Below, piece after piece: positions 49,041-54,849 of a DNA stretch of 64,000 nucleotides. The notes under the pieces were generated by a model. It was given only the letters and a program-made list of their open reading frames with translations. It was not told the origin of the DNA and searched no databases. This stretch comes from an uncultured Clostridia bacterium (GTDB lineage: Bacteria; Bacillota; Clostridia; TANB77; CAG-508): positions 31,206-95,205 of the forward strand of contig CALXLP010000003.1 of NCBI GenBank assembly GCA_944389225.1, in the 5' to 3' direction. Position numbers and translations under genes: made by a program. Each line of letters opens with the position of its first letter. Position 1 is the stretch's first letter.

Positions 49041-49397
49041 ATGTCTAGCTACATAATACAAGGAGGAAATCGACTAGAAGGAACAGTTAAAATATCTGGT
49101 TCTAAAAATTCAAGTTTACCGATTATTGCAGCAACCATATTAAATGGTGGAGAAACCACATTATATAATGTACCCAATATTCATGATACACAAATGATGT
49201 TTGAAATCTTAAGACAAATAGGAGGAAAAGTAACCAAAAAGAAGAATAAAGTCATCATTAATACAAAAGACATTAACAAATATGAAATACCAGAAGAACT
49301 GATGAGACAAATGCGTTCTTCTGTGATTTTTGCAGGAAGTTTGTTAGGAAAATATAGGAAATGTACCTTATCTTATCCAGGGGATTGCGATATTTGA
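49041..49397 (+). pseudogene. murA: murA 5' fragment (UDP-GlcNAc 1-carboxyvinyltransferase residues 1 to about 113), truncated by element insertion
   Basis: Canonical MurA N-terminus 'IIQGGNRLEGTVKISGSKNSSLPIIAATIL' ends '..LSYPGDCDI*' at the junction with the element. Confidence 0.9.
49377..49397 (+). other. attL core
   Basis: CCAGGGGATTGCGATATTTGA matches attR ACAGGAGGTTGTGACATAGGA at 14 of 21 positions. Confidence 0.6.
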
Positions 49398-49458
49398 TTG
49401 ATACATCGGACAAGTTTAAGATAAATGAGTGGATACAGGAATTTAAATAATAAAATAG

Positions 49459-49495
49459 ATAAGCTTTAAAAGTAATATTTTAAGGCTTATTTTTT
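49459..49495 (+). terminator. Rho-independent terminator just inside the left end of the element
   Basis: Stem ATAAGCTTTAAAA / TTTTAAGGCTTAT (1 mismatch) followed by T5. It would stop read-through from truncated murA. Confidence 0.6.
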
Positions 49496-49569
49496 AACCT
49501 TAAAACTATACTAAAAATTATTTTAAAAACCACAAAATTGAATGTGAGGCGAAAGGAGATGTAGAAAAT

Positions 49570-50106
49570 ATGGTAACACAAAAACTAAAAGGACTATGGA
49601 TACCAGTAGAAATTTTATTAAATAAAGATTTATCAGATAAAGAAAAGATAATACTATCTATGATTTTGTATTTAAGCGAAGAAACTAAAAGTTGTTTTGC
49701 CAGTAATAAATATATAGCAAGTATTGTAAATGTAACAGCAAATAGAGTATCTAAAATTATAAGTTCTCTGAAAGAAAAAGAGTATATAAAAGTAAAATTA
49801 AAATATAAAACAGACAGTAAAGAAATAGAGCAAAGACAAATTACACCTATTGTTCAAAATATTAATAGGTATAATTCAAAAAGCCAAGAGGATATTGAAA
49901 CAAATAACTATTTAAATAGTCAAAAACAACAATACCCTATATATAATAAAGACAAAGATATAATAAATAATATAAAAAATAAAAATAATTATAATAAATG
50001 GGACACATGTAAAAAGGAAAATACTTCATATAGAAGCGACAGAAATTACGATGACTTCGATTGGAGTAGCTTATATGCAAATTTAAAAGAGGTTAATTCT
50101 ACTTAA
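49570..50106 (+). CDS. Helix-turn-helix protein, plasmid/phage replication-initiator-like N-terminus
   Basis: 'GLWIPVEILLNKDLSDKEKIILSMILYLS....CFASNKYIASIVNVTANRVSKIISSLKEKEYI' is a winged-helix pattern common in small Firmicute replicons. The tail is N/K-rich. Confidence 0.5.
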   Translation: MVTQKLKGLWIPVEILLNKDLSDKEKIILSMILYLSEETKSCFASNKYIASIVNVTANRVSKIISSLKEKEYIKVKLKYKTDSKEIEQRQITPIVQNINRYNSKSQEDIETNNYLNSQKQQYPIYNKDKDIINNIKNKNNYNKWDTCKKENTSYRSDRNYDDFDWSSLYANLKEVNST

Positions 50107-50135
50107 TATTAGAACTAGCCTCTTTTTAAATTTGT

Positions 50136-50250
50136 CTAAAAAACTATTTATAGTTTTTTAGCAATCAAAAATAAAAATTTGCTTTTTTATTTTTGATTGA
50201 ATGGGGTGTGGGGCAATAGCCCTGCCATACAGACAAACTTGTTTGTCTAG
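50136..50250 (+). promoter_or_regulatory. Candidate oriT (three inverted repeats plus a GTGTGGGGC tract) upstream of the MobV gene
   Basis: Hairpins at 50136-50161, 50162-50199 and 50231-50248. GGGGTGTGGGGCAATAGCCC lies between them. The position immediately 5' of mob is typical for MobV oriT sites. Confidence 0.4.
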
Positions 50251-50302
50251 TATGTTAGACATTCAAAGAATATCTTAAGTAAAAAGGAGGTGCAAAGAAG
50301 AT

Positions 50303-51475
50303 ATGAGTTATGCAATTATAAGAAACGAAAAGATGACTAGAATAGAAGCAAAAGGAAGTTATGTTCATAATGAAAGAAGAACAAGAGGTCATACAAATAA
50401 AGATATTGATTCAGAAAAAACACGTTTGAATTATTACTTAAAGAAAAACGAATTGAGTTATATAAAAGAATTTGATAGATTAAAGAAAGAAAATGATTTA
50501 CAAGGACATATAAGAAGCAACAGTATAATAATGTGCGAAATGATATTTACATCAGATAAAGAATTTTTTGATGAAATTGGAGAAAAAGAAACCAAAAGAT
50601 ATTTTGAAGAAAGTTATAATTTTATATGTAGTTACAAAAATCTTGGAGAAAAAAATATAATATCAGCAGTAGTACATTTAGACGAAGGAACACCACATAT
50701 GCACTTGATATATATTCCAGTAATTCATACAAAAGATAAAGAAAGAAAAGAAATAGATAAAATATGTTGTAGGGATTTTTGGAAAGGTAGAGATAGTTAT
50801 AGGCAATTACAAAATACTTTTTTTGAATATATTACTTCAAAAGGATTTGAACTAGAAAGGGGATTGCCAGTTGAGGAAACAGGAGCAAAACATGAAAAAA
50901 TAGAAAACTTAAAGAAGATGACTAATTTAGAAAATACTAAAAAAGTATTAGATAATATAAAACTTGAATTACCAGAAACACCTAATATAAATGATATTAA
51001 ACTTATAAAATTAAATAGAGAAAAAGTAGAAGATGAAATCATTAAACCAAAAGATAAATTGATTAATGAGTTGTACCAAGAGAATAGGATTCTTCACAAA
51101 GAATTATCAAAACAAGTGAATTTAGTAGATAAAGTAATAAAATATGAAAAAGAAAGAAAAGAAATAATGTATGACAATAAAGAATTGCACAATGAAGTAG
51201 ATAAAATCAAGTCAGAATATAAAGAAAAAGCATTTGATTTAGAATGGAAATATAAAAGTAAAATTAAAAGTTTAGAAAAAGAGAATAGCCATTTGAATAA
51301 GATAATAGATAAATTTTATGAAGTGATGGAAAAATTTATAAAATGGATTTGTAAAAAATTCGATATGGGTGCTGAAGATTATTTAATGCGAGATTTCCAA
51401 AAAGAAACTAATACTTTATTGGATACTGAAAAACAAATAGAACACGAAGCCATAGAAAAGGATTTAGAAATGTAG
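50303..51475 (+). CDS. MobV-family relaxase (Mob/Pre plasmid recombination enzyme)
   Basis: 'MSYAIIRNEKMTR....GSYVHNERR' N-terminus and the 'VVHLDEGTPHMHLIYIPV' (HxDE..PHxH) motif. The C-terminus is coiled coil. Confidence 0.85.
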   Translation: MSYAIIRNEKMTRIEAKGSYVHNERRTRGHTNKDIDSEKTRLNYYLKKNELSYIKEFDRLKKENDLQGHIRSNSIIMCEMIFTSDKEFFDEIGEKETKRYFEESYNFICSYKNLGEKNIISAVVHLDEGTPHMHLIYIPVIHTKDKERKEIDKICCRDFWKGRDSYRQLQNTFFEYITSKGFELERGLPVEETGAKHEKIENLKKMTNLENTKKVLDNIKLELPETPNINDIKLIKLNREKVEDEIIKPKDKLINELYQENRILHKELSKQVNLVDKVIKYEKERKEIMYDNKELHNEVDKIKSEYKEKAFDLEWKYKSKIKSLEKENSHLNKIIDKFYEVMEKFIKWICKKFDMGAEDYLMRDFQKETNTLLDTEKQIEHEAIEKDLEM

Positions 51476-51568
51476 TCTTAAATTAAAGTGTTGAAAAAAA
51501 ATAAATGTAATGTTATAATTTTTTTGGGAATATAGAAAAATATTTTATAGATAATATTTGGAGGAAAA

Positions 51569-52429
51569 ATGGAAAAAGAAGATATATATTTATCAACAGC
51601 GAGTTGGGGAAAATCAGAACCAACATATGAAACCAAACAATTTTTATTAGCGTTAATTATAAAGGAAAAGATTAATAATAAAAAACCAAATATAATAGAT
51701 GCTGGAGCGGGATTAGGTCGAAATTCTATATATTTATCTGAAAATGGATTTGATGTAACAGCAATTGAATATGATGAAGGAGCGATTAATCCGCTTAAAG
51801 ATAATATAAGAGAAAATAATCAGTCAGATAATATAAGAGTTATCAATTTAAACATTATAGATTATTTAAGGAGACAAGAAGATCATAGTATTGATGCAGT
51901 ATTAGATAGTGGAATGTCTCATTATTTAACATTAGATGAAAAAGAAGAATATTTTATGTTGCTAAGACAAAAAATGGCAGAAGACGGATTATTTTCTATA
52001 ACTCATTTTTCAAAGGAAGACAAAAGTGCAAATGGCTTATCAGAAGATCAATTAAGATTATTATTAGAAGGAATGATTGAATTAGATGATATACATTTTG
52101 ACACATGGACTGACTCTATTTCTAAGAGTGAACATTTTGCATATAAAGGATTATTGGCTATGCCAGGTGGTCGTTGCAATGAAATTAAAGATATATATAT
52201 AAGAGTATATGAATTGATTTTAGATAAAAAAATAACAAGTGTGAAACAAATACATGAATATTTAAATGGCCTAAATGTCAAAACACAAATATTGGACAGC
52301 AAAACAATAGGACAAGGTGTAGTAGGTGAAATGCAACAAATAGAAGAAATAGATGCTACTATGTCAGTTCTTCAGGCACATCAACAGATAATAAGAAAAC
52401 AACAAGATGGAAGACAATATGAAAACTAA
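51569..52429 (+). CDS. Class I SAM-dependent methyltransferase with a C-terminal extension of about 90 aa and unknown function
   Basis: Motif I 'IIDAGAGLGRNSIYLSENGFDVTAIEYD' and post-I/II 'AVLDSGMSHYL'. SD TGGAGGAAAA. Confidence 0.7.
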   Translation: MEKEDIYLSTASWGKSEPTYETKQFLLALIIKEKINNKKPNIIDAGAGLGRNSIYLSENGFDVTAIEYDEGAINPLKDNIRENNQSDNIRVINLNIIDYLRRQEDHSIDAVLDSGMSHYLTLDEKEEYFMLLRQKMAEDGLFSITHFSKEDKSANGLSEDQLRLLLEGMIELDDIHFDTWTDSISKSEHFAYKGLLAMPGGRCNEIKDIYIRVYELILDKKITSVKQIHEYLNGLNVKTQILDSKTIGQGVVGEMQQIEEIDATMSVLQAHQQIIRKQQDGRQYEN

Positions 52430-52446
52430 AAAGGAGAAAATAAAAA

Positions 52447-52884
52447 ATGATTGAAAACATAAGTATAGAATATGCTAATGCTTATACAGAAGTTTTAGAA
52501 ATTTTAAGTAAAATGTCAAAAAATGATTATAATAAGATACCTAGAGATATGATACAAGTTTTTGAAATTTACAGCAATAAGGACTATGCTTTTGAATATA
52601 ATTTAAAAAAAGACTTTGACCAACAAGGTATTTCTAAAAGGGCCAAGTTAATTTTAGCAATTCTATTTAGAGACTATTGGGCTAATGATAATCAAAGAGA
52701 AAAAATTATTGCTAAGCAAAATTATGACAGACAAAAACTTGAAGAAGAAAAAAGAAAAATATATAATACGAATGTATTTAAAAATAAAGAAAATAATATT
52801 GAGACAGATGGAATAGAAAATATTTCAGAACAAGTTAATTTGATACAATATGAACATAAAGAGTCAATCATAAAAAAATTATAA
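52447..52884 (+). CDS. Hypothetical protein (145 aa)
   Basis: SD AAAGGAGAAAA. No recognisable motif. Confidence 0.55.
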   Translation: MIENISIEYANAYTEVLEILSKMSKNDYNKIPRDMIQVFEIYSNKDYAFEYNLKKDFDQQGISKRAKLILAILFRDYWANDNQREKIIAKQNYDRQKLEEEKRKIYNTNVFKNKENNIETDGIENISEQVNLIQYEHKESIIKKL

Positions 52885-52906
52885 ATAAACTAAAAAGTAT
52901 ATTTAG

Positions 52907-52945
52907 AAAATAGAACAAGTACTTATTTACTTGTTCTATTTTTTG
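52907..52945. terminator. Bidirectional terminator between convergent cargo genes
   Basis: Stem AAATAGAACAAGTA / TACTTGTTCTATTT followed by a T-run. Overlaps the stop of the minus-strand gene. Confidence 0.7.
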
Positions 52946-54220
52946 CAATATACCTGGCTTAATTTTTGTAATTCTAGCCTAAATTCTTCTATTTTACTAT
53001 CATTATAACTATTTCTTAATTCTCTAGCTTTTTCTGACCATTCTTTAAATTTATTTTCTTTAAATTCTTTAGGATGATTATAGTGTAAACCATGCATCCT
53101 TTTGTATTCCCTATTATATTCCTGCAAAATTAAACTGTTTTTTACTTTCTCTTTTCTTTTATTTAAAGCACCAATTTCTCTGCAAGTTTTTCCTGTATCT
53201 AAATATATATTATTACAATATTTTTGGTCATTTCTGCCTTTTTGATTTTTATTCTTACTAGTAGTTACAGGTATAAATAATTTGCCACAATTTTCACATT
53301 TATTAATTGTAAAATTATTTTGGATTATTTTAAATAATTCAAACCTAATTTGTTCTTCAGCATTAGCTAATTCATACACTTCTTCAGCCATAATATGCTT
53401 TTCTTTTATTAAATTAACTACATCTTCTACATCTAATCTTTTTTCTTGTAATGACAATTCTGCATTACATATATATTTTGTTTTGAATTTTGTATCTAAA
53501 AATAGTGCGTGTGCAGGATTAGTATTTACATAGTGTATATCAAAAACTCTTTTTGCTTCATATAAATATAATCTTTCATTAGTAGATAAGTTTTTTACAG
53601 TAGGGTTTTGAGAATATTTGCTAATCAATTCTAATCTTTCTTTTAAATCAGACTTTTTCTCCATAAAATCTTTTATCAATAAATCTCTAATTGTTTCAAA
53701 AAAATCCATATATTTTTTATGTGTTTTCTTAGATATTTTTTCTATTTTCTGAGTAAATTCGTGCATTATAAGATTTATATTATATTCGTTTTCTTCCAAT
53801 TCTTCAAAAAATTCATTTGGAGAGTATTCTGGATTTTCAATAAAGCATCCAATATCAGATTTAAATAATAAATCAGACCTAAATACTTTTGTATTATAGG
53901 TTTTTACAATTATATCTATTAATAATTGAGTATAGAAGTGTGTATAAGGAGAAAATTCTAAACACGCTCTAACTATTTGAAACATTTTAAAGAAACAATC
54001 TAATTTTTCATCCATTATATCAGATTCTTTTGCAGTTGATACAAGTTCTATTAATTGAGAGTATATATTTTTCAATCTTTCAAATTCTTTATTATCCATT
54101 ATAGCAAATTCATATAGTTTATCTCCAATATTATATTCAAAATCATGAATTGCACCAAAATATTCTCCGATTATTTTTTATTATAATTTTATTATTATCA
54201 ATTGCGAAATTAGTTATCAT
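52936..54220 (-). CDS. Hypothetical protein with a C-terminal Cys cluster. The N-terminal ~40 codons and SD lie in another frame (+1 frameshift in a homopolymer run).
   Basis: The track ORF 52936-54099 has no SD. ATG at 54220 follows GGAGGAAG and gives MITNFAIDNNKIIIK.., which joins the main frame (..IIGEYFGAIHDFEYNIGDKLYEFAIMDNKEF..) if one A of the A6 run (plus-strand T6, 54174-54179) is removed. Contains 'CENCGKLF...QKYCNN...C'. Confidence 0.6.
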
Positions 54221-54393
54221 TACAGCACTTCCTCCATTTAAAAAATAGACTATAACTATTTTGAATTTTACTTTAGCTATAGACTTATAAAAATCTATTT
54301 ACAAGCCATTTTAAGGCTTTTATAATAAAAATAGATAATAGAAAATAGTAATTATAAATAACTATTTTCTATAATAGTATAGCACATTGAAAA

Positions 54394-54422
54394 TTGAATA
54401 GCAAACTACAAGTACATATAAT
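54394..54422 (+). promoter_or_regulatory. Near-consensus sigma-A promoter inside the element
   Basis: TTGAAT (54394-54399), a 17-nt spacer, then TATAAT (54417-54422). Confidence 0.5.
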
Positions 54423-54583
54423 GATACTTTTGTCTGGCTAACGTGATGTAAAGGGGCAATTCTCTAAAAAGAGGAATGAGGGCAAATCTCATATGGGTAT
54501 TTGATTTACCACTTGTAGTTTTAGTAATAAGGACAAACAAGAAACGAATACAATTGATAGAAAGGTAGGTGAATACTCTGAAA

Positions 54584-54736
54584 ATGACAAAAAAGAATGA
54601 TAAGGATAAGAAGCAAAAAGACAAACTACCATTTGCAGTTTTTATATGTCCAAAATCAAATGTGGGTGAATTAGATGATTATAAACAGGTATTCACCGAT
54701 ATTATATCTGATAGAATACAAGAAAAATATAAATAA
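54584..54736 (+). CDS. Small hypothetical ORF (50 aa; below the ORF-track cutoff)
   Basis: MTKKNDKDKKQKDKLPFAVFICPKSNVGELDDYKQVFTDIISDRIQEKYK*. The SD (AGGTAGGTG) is weak and distant. Confidence 0.3.
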   Translation: MTKKNDKDKKQKDKLPFAVFICPKSNVGELDDYKQVFTDIISDRIQEKYK

Positions 54737-54805
54737 AAAAATGAGAACAAATTTTCGCAAACATATTGAAAAATTGTAAGAAATATGATATAAATAAGAG
54801 GATTC

Positions 54806-54830
54806 AACTGTTCGGAATTTCCGAACAGTT
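54806..54830. promoter_or_regulatory. Perfect 12+1+12 palindrome (operator-like) upstream of the DinD-like gene
   Basis: AACTGTTCGGAA-T-TTCCGAACAGTT, 20 nt upstream of ATG 54850. Confidence 0.6.
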
Positions 54831-54849
54831 AAAAAAGGAGATGAGATAT

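What the first reader, a model, noticed from the sequence alone, without database searches (positions are those of the whole stretch)
49377..49409. Junction cores are related (14/21) and the element ends are imperfect inverted repeats, as expected for serine-recombinase att sites
Seen in sequence:
- attL CCAGGGGATTGCGATATTTGA (49377-49397) and attR ACAGGAGGTTGTGACATAGGA (57599-57619) are identical at 14 of 21 positions, including CAGG, TTG and GA.
- The element's inner left end (GGATTGCGATATTTGATTGATACATCGG), when reverse-complemented, resembles its inner right end (TATGTATCCGCAAACTATCACAAACAGG). They share ATGTATC and a CAAA.TATC.CAA block.

Inference:
- A crossover in or next to the shared CAGG would rebuild CCA GGA GGT TGT GAC ATA GGA (P-G-G-C-D-I-G).
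- A crossover further right would leave PGDC instead of PGGC.
- The mimicry explains why the truncated 5' fragment still ends ..PGDCDI.
Basis: partly seen in the sequence, partly recalled or inferred. Interest (0 to 1): 0.6.

Follow-up and report, generated by a model that had tools for sequence, protein, structure and literature searches.

The report
murA-specific serine-recombinase element att sites
The two related 21-base junctions are the real left and right attachment sites of an 8.2-kb mobilizable element that a large serine recombinase inserts, by exchange at a GG dinucleotide, into the catalytic-loop codons of one of two murA copies in chicken-gut Clostridia; this is ordinary att-site anatomy, and the recombinase gene's conserved one-base frameshift is the less ordinary part.

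Summary
attL (49377-49397) and attR (57599-57619) match at 14 of 21 positions. In that fixed register, chance gives this about 9 times in 10,000.

Left flank plus right flank lines up without gaps with uninterrupted murA of 13 relatives. One metagenome contig skips exactly 8222 bp.

attL, attR and attB share only CAGG. Four relatives keep the host codon CCG or CCT in attL but have ACAGG in attR, which places the exchange at GG (49380-81 and 57602-03). The rebuilt attP is an imperfect inverted repeat, 16 of 24 complementary, centred on that GG.

The 'mimicry' is attP-attB likeness (21 of 42 in register). It does not repair the gene.

The element carries HTH, MobV relaxase, cargo, DUF6076, Bro-N and the recombinase. 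It is one of a mosaic family of 1.9-17.6 kb. All 78 relatives examined sit at the same murA codon, and 82 of 338 species genomes of the genus carry the junction.

The recombinase is broken by an extra C (GGT-C-GGA), not by the A run. At least nine host species carry this allele, and both halves are under purifying selection. The 0-frame codon CGG is the host's rarest. A corrective +1 ribosomal frameshift is plausible but untested.

The parts
49041..49381 (+). murA 5' fragment (codons 1-113 plus the first two bases of the next codon, up to and including the crossover GG). The open frame runs on into the element and stops at 49395-49397 (..YPGDCDI*).
   Evidence: Pfam EPSP_synthase, profile positions 1-117; translation; 94-98% aa identity to N-termini of intact relatives.
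49357..49406 (+). attL: host B arm (to 49379), crossover GG (49380-49381), element P' arm (GGATTGCGATATTTGATTGATACAT, from 49382).
   Evidence: The P' arm is nearly invariant in 31 elements from different hosts.
49380..49381 (.). Crossover dinucleotide GG, attL copy.
   Evidence: attL keeps host CCG or CCT in L048, L086, L120 and L125, while their attR has ACAGG. The next base is the element's G in attL and the host's A, T or G in attR. This GG is also the symmetry centre of attP.
49382..57603 (+). Integrated mobilizable element, 8222 bp. The boundary is ambiguous by the 2-bp GG.
   Evidence: A contig in run X7 skips exactly 8222 bp; empty sites in relatives.
49570..50106 (+). HTH_36 / DnaD_N-like DNA-binding protein.
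   Evidence: Pfam.
50303..51475 (+). MobV-type relaxase (Mob_Pre).
   Evidence: Pfam PF01076, E = 3e-41.
51569..52884 (+). Variable cargo: a class I SAM methyltransferase (51569-52429) and a 145-aa ORF with no family.
   Evidence: Pfam. This stretch is not shared with most related elements.
52936..54099 (-). DUF6076 protein, a conserved backbone gene.
   Evidence: Pfam; conserved in related elements.
54766..55695 (+). Bro-N domain protein.
   Evidence: Pfam.
55965..56684 (+). Large serine recombinase, 0-frame part (Resolvase domain plus the first two thirds of the Recombinase domain). It ends with ..YVG (GGT 56682-56684).
   Evidence: Pfam; alignment to 65 intact alleles.
56685..56687 (+). Frameshift site. 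The extra C is at 56685, so the 0 frame reads the rare codon CGG and the +1 frame reads GGA. The 0 frame stops at 56709-56711.
   Evidence: Contigs of three studies keep the base, and one contig of run X15 lacks it.
56686..57612 (+). Large serine recombinase, +1-frame part (rest of the Recombinase domain, zinc ribbon, K/E-rich helical region). The stop TGA at 57610-57612 lies in murA-derived DNA.
   Evidence: Pfam.
57577..57627 (+). attR: element P arm (ATGTATCCGCAAACTATCACAAACA, to 57601), crossover GG (57602-57603), host B' arm (AGGTTGTGACATAGG.., from 57604).
57604..58525 (+). murA 3' fragment (from the third base of a Gly codon: ..GGCDIGTRPIDLH.. to the stop).
   Evidence: Pfam EPSP_synthase, profile positions 112-416, E = 5e-75.

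Best explanation
The two junctions are attL and attR of a site-specific integrative mobilizable element. Its large serine recombinase (LSR) recombines an element site, attP, with a host site, attB.

- attP is an imperfect inverted repeat of about 50 bp: ..ATGTAYCCACAAACTATCACAAACA-GG-GGATTGCGATATTTGNTNGATACAT..
- attB lies in the codons Y-P-G-G-C-D-I of the dcw-cluster copy of murA: TCATATCCA-GG-AGGATGTGAYAT.
- Strand exchange is at the central GG. There is no target duplication.
- Integration splits murA at its catalytic-cysteine loop. A second murA copy elsewhere in the genome is intact.
- The 14 of 21 likeness of attL to attR exists because attP resembles attB in register over about +-16 bp, as expected for two sites read by one protein.
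- The MobV relaxase would let the excised circle be mobilized by a conjugative helper.

Shown here: the site anatomy, the empty sites, the position of the exchange, the strict target choice, and the horizontal spread. Inferred: catalysis by this LSR, circle formation and mobilization.
For: - 14 of 21 and its chance level.
- Element genes: Resolvase + Recombinase + Zn_ribbon_recom, and Mob_Pre.
- Empty sites in relatives are colinear with the reconstruction. A contig with a precise 8222-bp skip exists.
- attL, attR and attB share only CAGG.
- Host-codon variants CCG or CCT are kept in attL while attR has ACAGG, in 4 independent elements. The base 3' of GG is element-type in attL and host-type in attR.
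- attP arms are 16 of 24 complementary, centred on GG, P about 1.5e-4, a unique maximum. In the consensus it is 17 of 25.
- attP and attB agree at 21 of 42 in register, against 6-15 out of register.
- 78 of 78 related LSR loci have attR at the same murA codon. 82 of 338 species genomes of the genus carry the junction.
- Related elements are 80-94% identical in nucleotides where host flanks are 67-69%. LSR genes are 93-96% identical where murA is 67-79%.
- A second, intact murA lies at G000:C4. Its site differs from attB.
Against: - No circular (attP) junction of this element was seen in the contigs laid. These runs are stored as contigs, which drop rare forms.
- The window's LSR gene has a frameshift, so this copy's activity is not certain.
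- No excision cofactor (RDF) was identified.
- attB is only weakly symmetric.
- The empty-site contig may come from a related strain that never had the element rather than from excision.
Confidence: 0.9

Rival explanations
1. The element is a dead, immobile remnant. Its recombinase is a pseudogene, and the junctions are fossils of a past insertion that can no longer be reversed.
For: - There is one extra base in the LSR gene, and the 0 frame stops 9 codons later.
- No other Recombinase-domain gene was found in this 87%-complete assembly that could act in trans.
- No circle junction was seen.
Against: - The same extra C occurs in at least 9 elements whose host murA genes are only 67-70% identical.
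- Both halves are free of further stops in all the alleles checked (6 alleles; three more over the stretch held).
- dN/dS is 0.02-0.16 among the six alleles compared.
- In the 69 codons right after the shift, 17 variable codons are synonymous and 7 are not in the +1 frame, against 2 and 23 in the 0 frame.
- attL and attR are intact and match the family consensus.
Confidence: 0.3
2. The element is a domesticated 'intervening element' like skin or SPbeta. It is excised in the mother cell during sporulation to rebuild murA for cortex synthesis, and it is inherited vertically.
For: - The host has Spo0A and SpoIVA.
- An LSR gene abuts the junction and the insertion splits a coding gene reversibly, as in sigK/skin.
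- 24% of species in the genus carry it.
Against: - The element carries a MobV relaxase.
- Elements are far more alike than their hosts, so they spread horizontally.
- Cargo is mosaic and sizes run from 1.9 to 17.6 kb.
- A second intact murA exists.
- This murA copy is frameshifted outright in some relatives, so it looks dispensable.
- No sporulation promoter or RDF was looked for or seen.
Confidence: 0.07
3. The likeness of the two junction cores is a target-site duplication or a chance match, unrelated to a serine-recombinase crossover.
For: If the register may float within 41-nt windows, 14% of random pairs from this AT-rich window reach 14 of 21.
Against: - The register is fixed by the murA frame, where P is about 9e-4.
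- Only CAGG is shared exactly, and nothing is duplicated relative to empty sites.
- The same arms recur in 78 attR and 31 attL.
- The symmetry centre coincides with the mapped exchange point.
Confidence: 0.02

Closest known systems
Large serine recombinase integration systems with defined attP/attB (phiC31, Bxb1, TP901-1, Listeria A118 / LI integrase).
   Same: - The recombinase has Resolvase + Recombinase + zinc-ribbon architecture.
- attP is an imperfect inverted repeat with inner and outer motif blocks.
- Exchange is at a non-palindromic central dinucleotide, and there is no target duplication.
- The target lies inside a coding gene, as for A118 in comK. That comparison is from established knowledge.
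   Different: - The sequence is distant: no solved structure matches the C-terminal half, and only two chains match the catalytic domain.
- The carrier is a relaxase-bearing mobilizable element, not a phage.
- The target is the murA catalytic loop. I found no paper describing that target, though the search was limited.
- The LSR ORF crosses attP.
Tn4451/Tn4453 (TnpX + TnpZ) and Tn5397 (TndX): clostridial and enterococcal elements moved by large serine recombinases.
   Same: - The element is small, lives in Firmicutes, and combines an LSR with a Mob_Pre (MobV) relaxase.
- TndX and TnpX-type (DUF4368-annotated) proteins are the nearest named relatives. The catalytic half is about 32% identical, and PDB entries 2mhc (TnpX) and 3g13 are the only structure hits.
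- The ends resemble the target.
   Different: - Identity is only about 32%.
- The crossover is GG, not the GA reported for TnpX and TndX. That figure is from my recollection of the literature and was not checked here.
- Target choice is strict (78 of 78 in one murA codon), rather than spread over several sites.
- The LSR sits at the right end and reads outward across the junction.
Integrative and mobilizable elements (IMEs) of streptococci that encode serine recombinases (Coluzzi et al. 2017, PMC5357655; Guedon et al. 2017, PMC5704250).
   Same: - The make-up is modular: an integration module, a relaxase, and variable cargo.
- Integration is site-specific and inside conserved genes.
- Reversible gene disruption is discussed for this class.
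   Different: - The host clade differs: uncultured gut Clostridia.
- The target gene and the recombinase lineage differ.
- murA does not occur as a gene or target in the main text of PMC5357655; the single word hit was an author's name.
Corrective +1 frameshifting at rare CGG_A / UGG_A codons in glass-sponge mitochondria, and Ty3-type +1 frameshifting (Atkins et al. 2016, PMC5009743).
   Same: - A single inserted C lies directly 5' of a GGA codon.
- It creates a 0-frame CGG that is extremely rare in the host.
- A glycine codon precedes it.
- Skipping the C restores the ancestral protein.
   Different: - This is a bacterial mobile-element recombinase gene, not a mitochondrial gene.
- No expression or protein data exist here.
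- The allele is a minority: 6 of 72 related LSR genes.

Membership tests
Large serine recombinase (LSR) integrase system | N-terminal resolvase catalytic domain with the serine nucleophile. | tested here: met
   Pfam Resolvase PF00239, E = 4.5e-19, residues 11-151. The motif ..VVIYCRESRDD.. is present. Catalysis was not assayed.
Large serine recombinase (LSR) integrase system | Recombinase domain, zinc-ribbon domain, and a C-terminal helical or coiled-coil region. | tested here: met
   PF07508 is split across the frameshift (positions 2-64 and 65-102). PF13408 Zn_ribbon_recom has E = 5.8e-11. A K/E-rich helical stretch gives a weak PspA_IM30 hit.
Large serine recombinase (LSR) integrase system | A single uninterrupted recombinase ORF. 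| tested here: not met
   An extra C at 56685 splits the gene. 65 of 72 related genes are uninterrupted.
Large serine recombinase (LSR) integrase system | attP x attB exchange at a 2-bp central dinucleotide, with no target duplication, and attL/attR as hybrid sites. | tested here: met
   Comparative mapping places the exchange at GG. Empty sites are colinear with the reconstruction. A contig skips 8222 bp. The biochemical cut was not tested.
Large serine recombinase (LSR) integrase system | attP is an imperfect inverted repeat centred on the crossover. | tested here: met
   16 of 24, P about 1.5e-4, a unique maximum at GG. 17 of 25 in the consensus.
Integrative mobilizable element of the Tn4451 type (LSR + Mob_Pre) | Encodes a MobV/Pre relaxase together with a serine recombinase, and has no conjugation pore genes. 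| tested here: met
   Mob_Pre, E = 3e-41. No other element ORF has a transfer-apparatus family.
Integrative mobilizable element of the Tn4451 type (LSR + Mob_Pre) | Recombinase orthologous to TnpX, GA crossover, and several target sites. | tested here: not met
   About 32% identity to TndX and TnpX-type proteins. The crossover is GG. 78 of 78 insertions are in one murA codon.
Integrative mobilizable element of the Tn4451 type (LSR + Mob_Pre) | Excision to a circle and mobilization from an oriT. | not testable with these tools
   No circle junction was seen among the contigs laid. An attP-like junction occurs only inside a tandem array in G262. oriT was not examined.
Sporulation intervening elements (skin, SPbeta type) | Interrupts a gene needed late in the mother cell and is excised there under sigma-E/K control with an RDF. 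| not tested
   The host has Spo0A and SpoIVA. The element is horizontally mobile. murA has an intact second copy.
Programmed or corrective +1 ribosomal frameshift site | The shift site is conserved, with purifying selection in the 0 frame upstream and in the +1 frame downstream. | tested here: met
   Nine alleles are all GGY-C-GGR. Flanking changes are synonymous in the respective frames. dN/dS among the six alleles compared is 0.02-0.16. Caveat: the alleles are not monophyletic in the LSR tree, so recombination may have spread the patch.
Programmed or corrective +1 ribosomal frameshift site | A slow-to-decode 0-frame A-site codon and a well-decoded +1 codon. | tested here: met
   CGG is the rarest sense codon of G000 (36 of 311,506) and occurs 0 times in 38,766 in-frame LSR codons. 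GGA makes up 64.5% of Gly codons, and there are three tRNA-Gly(UCC) genes. Whether tRNA-Arg(CCG) is absent is inconclusive, because only 27 tRNAs were assembled.
Programmed or corrective +1 ribosomal frameshift site | A trans-frame protein is actually made. | not testable with these tools
   No RNA runs or proteome data are available.

The most novel reading that the evidence does not exclude
The recombinase of this element family may be regulated in two unusual ways.

1. A sub-lineage carries a conserved single-C insertion (GGY-C-GGR). It would be read through by a +1 ribosomal frameshift at CGG, the host's rarest codon. Full-length recombinase output would then depend on host tRNA supply. 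This would be a bacterial counterpart of the glass-sponge mitochondrial CGG_A shift, and I found no report of frameshifting in a serine recombinase gene.

2. The LSR ORF spans attP. The circle would encode a conserved tail of 22-25 aa (GLRYL.DTSDK.KINEWI.EF..). Integration replaces that tail with two residues (RL in this window) and a stop supplied by the murA Cys-Asp codons. That could act as a built-in sensor of integration state, or as a directionality switch.
Probability: 0.4. Interest if true: 0.65.

Novelty: new member of a known kind. Interest (0 to 1): 0.42.

Why it matters
**Use as a site-specific integration system.** The att sites are now defined to the base: the crossover is GG, and the arm consensus rests on 78 attR and 31 attL junctions. 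This gives a ready, natural attP/attB pair with strict specificity for a very conserved bacterial sequence. It could serve as an integration tool for gut Clostridia that cannot yet be cultured or engineered.

**Biology of the host genus.** About a quarter of the species genomes in a 338-species gut genus carry a mobile element in the catalytic loop of one murA copy. That marks this copy as dispensable or conditionally used, and it marks the site as a hotspot for gene flow.

**Translation.** If the conserved frameshift is really decoded, it would add a rare bacterial +1 recoding case. It would also link recombinase dosage to codon rarity.

Tried and rejected
- **Apparent attP junction in L122.** It was a false hit. 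It is murA with unusual codons.
- **Second break class in murA.** I first took the murA open frames of about 190-210 aa in relatives for a second insertion hotspot. They are plain frameshifts near residue 175 in a clade of close relatives.
- **Solved structures.** The C-terminal LSR half found nothing.
- **Literature.** Searches for a murA-targeting serine recombinase found nothing relevant. The murA word hits were resistance-gene tables, a discussion of fosfomycin resistance, or authors' names. One search for programmed frameshifting together with 'serine recombinase' found only an unrelated paper. Two searches failed on syntax.
- **Contigs laid on the window.** Contigs of four runs showed no circular junction. 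They are assemblies, so this says nothing about absence.
- **tRNA-Arg(CCG).** Its presence or absence could not be settled, because only 27 tRNA genes are in this 87%-complete assembly.
- **Ancient vertical inheritance.** I considered this because of the high prevalence and rejected it. Elements are much more alike than their hosts.
- **One script timed out** and was rerun with faster settings.

Full report
**1. What is in the window**

A murA gene starts at 49041. It reads a normal MurA N-terminus as far as ..LSYPG and then ..DCDI* (stop at 49395-49397). MurA resumes 8.2 kb downstream, at 57604, as ..GGCDIGTRPIDLH.. and runs to 58525.

Pfam places the two pieces on EPSP_synthase profile positions 1-117 and 112-416.

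Between the two pieces lie these genes:
- an HTH_36/DnaD_N-like gene;
- a Mob_Pre (MobV) relaxase;
- a SAM methyltransferase and a small ORF with no family;
- a DUF6076 gene on the minus strand;
- a Bro-N gene;
- a large serine recombinase (Resolvase + Recombinase + Zn_ribbon_recom) at the right end. It reads outward, and its stop (57610-57612) lies in murA-derived DNA.

Flanking genes are an LD-carboxypeptidase and a sortase-like gene upstream, and FtsQ/DivIB and DUF881 downstream. This is therefore the cell-division-cluster copy of murA. A second, intact murA lies on another contig.

**2. The observation**

The two 21-mers agree at 14 of 21 positions. In the register fixed by the reading frame, 0.085% of random pairs from this 28% G+C window do as well. 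With a free register in 41-nt windows, 14% do. The match is therefore meaningful only because the frame fixes the register.

The inverted-repeat claim is stronger. With attP rebuilt as right end + GG + left end, the arms are complementary at 16 of 24 positions. The null mean is 6.8 and P(>=16) is about 1.5e-4. This is the only centre within about 46 nt on either side that scores above 11.

**3. Empty sites and the exchange point**

Searching relatives with the 3' fragment and with the 5' fragment found many uninterrupted copies. All read TA(T/C)-CCN-GGN-GGN-TGT-GA(C/T)-AT. The window's left flank joined to its right flank aligns to 13 of them without gaps, at 89-95% nucleotide identity.

Contigs of a bird-gut metagenome (run X7) include one that joins 49377 to 57600. 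It skips exactly 8222 bp, with four letters that fit either side.

attL, attR and attB share only CAGG, so the 2-bp exchange must be CA, AG or GG. Three observations choose GG:
- Four elements sit in hosts whose proline codon is CCG or CCT (L048/G007, L086, L120, L125). Their attL keeps CCG-GG or CCT-GG while their attR has ACA-GG, so the A is not part of the exchanged dinucleotide.
- The base after GG is the element's (G, or A in two variants) in attL. In attR it is the host's wobble base (A, T or G).
- The symmetry centre of attP is that same GG.

The element is therefore 49382-57603, give or take the 2-bp overlap.

**4. The sites**

From 78 attR and 31 attL junctions, the consensus attP is ATGTAYCCACAAACTATCACAAACA-GG-GGATTGCGATATTTGNTNGATACAT. 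Its arms are 17 of 25 complementary, in an inner block and an outer ATGTA block.

The consensus attB is ..TCATATCCA-GG-AGGATGTGAYAT.. It is symmetric over roughly the inner 11 bp only.

attP and attB agree at 21 of 42 positions in register, against 6-15 in any other register. That likeness, expected for two sites bound by one protein, is why the truncated 5' fragment still reads PGDCDI. It does not restore the gene.

The corresponding site in the second murA copy (GGTATGCCTGGTGGTTGTAAA) is a poor match. This fits the exclusive use of one copy.

**5. The family**

A scan of species-representative genomes with the LSR C-terminal half returned 80 loci, 80-98% identical in protein. All are uncultured gut Clostridia, from human, rabbit, mouse, sheep, deer and chicken samples. 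In all 78 loci where the junction is present, attR is at the same murA codon.

In the window's genus, 82 of 338 species genomes (24%) carry the junction. Among high-quality genomes the figure is 35 of 200.

Element sizes run from 1.9 kb (little more than the recombinase) to 17.6 kb. The backbone is HTH, relaxase, variable cargo, DUF6076, (Bro-N), LSR, and it is mosaic.

The elements are far more alike than their hosts. Elements are 80-94% identical in nucleotides where flanks are 67-69%. LSR genes are 93-96% identical where murA is 67-79%. They therefore move horizontally.

The nearest named recombinases are TndX and TnpX-type proteins, at about 32% identity. The only solved-structure hits are 3g13 and TnpX (2mhc).

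I found no paper describing a murA-targeting serine recombinase. That search covers open-access text only.

The window's sequence is held by chicken-gut and related metagenomes from 10 studies.

**6. The recombinase frameshift**

Aligned to 65 uninterrupted alleles, the window's gene has one extra C. Intact genes read GTA-GGN-GGA-CAT (V-G-G-H). The window reads GTA-GGT-C-GGA-CAT (56679-56691).

The base is real. Contigs from three studies keep it, and one contig in a fourth run lacks it.

The same insertion occurs in at least nine elements, in hosts whose murA genes are only 67-70% identical. The evidence for selection on these alleles is as follows:
- Both halves are free of further stops wherever they were checked: in full for six alleles, and over the stretch held for three more.
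- dN/dS among the six alleles compared is 0.02-0.16 in both halves, the same as among intact alleles.
- Variants next to the site are synonymous in the 0 frame upstream (GTA>GTG, GGT>GGC). Downstream they are synonymous in the +1 frame (GGA>GGG, CAT>CAC, ACA>ACT).
- In the 69 codons after the site, 17 variable codons are synonymous and 7 are not in the +1 frame. In the 0 frame the counts are 2 and 23, with 9-14 stops per sequence.

The 0-frame codon created is CGG. It is the rarest sense codon of this genome (36 of 311,506) and is never used in frame in 38,766 LSR codons. The +1 codon GGA is the commonest glycine codon.

This is the same arrangement as the +1 shifts at rare CGG_A codons, with the insert 5' of GGA, reported in glass-sponge mitochondria (Atkins et al. 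2016, PMC5009743).

Three caveats apply:
- The frameshifted alleles are interspersed with intact ones in the LSR tree. Recombination may therefore have moved the patch, although WIN, L055 and L056 form a clade made up only of frameshifted alleles, with dS 0.19-0.33 and dN/dS 0.02-0.07.
- tRNA-Arg(CCG) status is unknown.
- There are no expression data.

No other Recombinase-domain gene was found in this assembly, so no helper is evident. I rate corrective +1 decoding as plausible, roughly even odds. The rival is a recently dead gene.

**7. Other points**

- The LSR ORF spans attP. In the circle it would continue for 22-25 codons (GLRYL(I/V)DTSDK(F/H)KINEWI(Q/R)EF..). This extension is open for at least 22 codons in 24 of 31 attL sequences (25 counting one of 19 codons). 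Synonymous variants are enriched in that frame (16, against 6 and 8 in the other two). Integration replaces the tail with two residues (RL in this window; RM or RV in other hosts) and a stop taken from the murA Cys-Asp codons.
- One relative (G262) has a decayed LSR remnant joined through a P-GG-P' junction to a second element. This is a tandem array, and it shows an attP-type joint in nature.
- The host has Spo0A and SpoIVA. A skin-like developmental excision cannot be excluded, but the relaxase, the horizontal spread, the second murA copy, and the outright decay of this copy in some relatives all disfavour it.

**8. Verdict**

The finding is correct and is now resolved to the base pair. In kind it is an ordinary large-serine-recombinase attachment-site pair on a mobilizable element, so it is a new member of a known class. 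Its target is unusual, highly conserved and often occupied. The frameshift and the junction-spanning ORF are the parts that could prove new.

Noticed in passing
window 56679-56711: The LSR frameshift is an extra C (GTA GGT C GGA), not an extra A in the A5 run. The same allele is in at least 9 host species with both halves under purifying selection. The 0-frame CGG is the host's rarest codon. This is a candidate corrective +1 ribosomal frameshift.
   Followed up: partly
window 57572-57612 with 49382-49450: The LSR ORF crosses attP. The excised circle would encode a conserved tail of 22-25 aa (GLRYLIDTSDKFKINEWIQEFK in this window). In the integrated state that tail is replaced by RL and a stop from the murA Cys-Asp codons. 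Synonymous variants are enriched in that frame among 31 attL sequences.
   Followed up: partly
L141 (G262:C86), junction near base 738 of the reverse complement: A decayed LSR remnant is followed by P arm-GG-P' arm and then a second element with its own LSR. This is a tandem array with an attP-type internal junction. The array's attR lies on G262:C49 (L142).
   Followed up: partly
L041, L043, L045 (G149, G073, G098), murA near codon 175: In a clade of close relatives the same murA copy has an intact att site but a frameshift near ..ASCLAE|RKNHYN... Many other genus members show open frames of 190-210 aa. This suggests the murA copy is dispensable and decays, though homopolymer errors in these assemblies are not excluded.
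   Followed up: partly
L074, 2556-4477: The smallest family member is about 1.9 kb between attL and attR, which is essentially the recombinase gene alone.
   Followed up: no
G177:C19 and G177:C70 (L034): One relative has two contigs with identical murA 5' fragments ending in attL. This is either strain heterogeneity in the bin or a duplicated locus.
   Followed up: no
whole genome G000: Only 27 tRNA genes were found in the 87%-complete assembly. No tRNA-Arg(ACG) was detected although CGT and CGA codons are used, so tRNA-based arguments cannot be made from this assembly.
   Followed up: no
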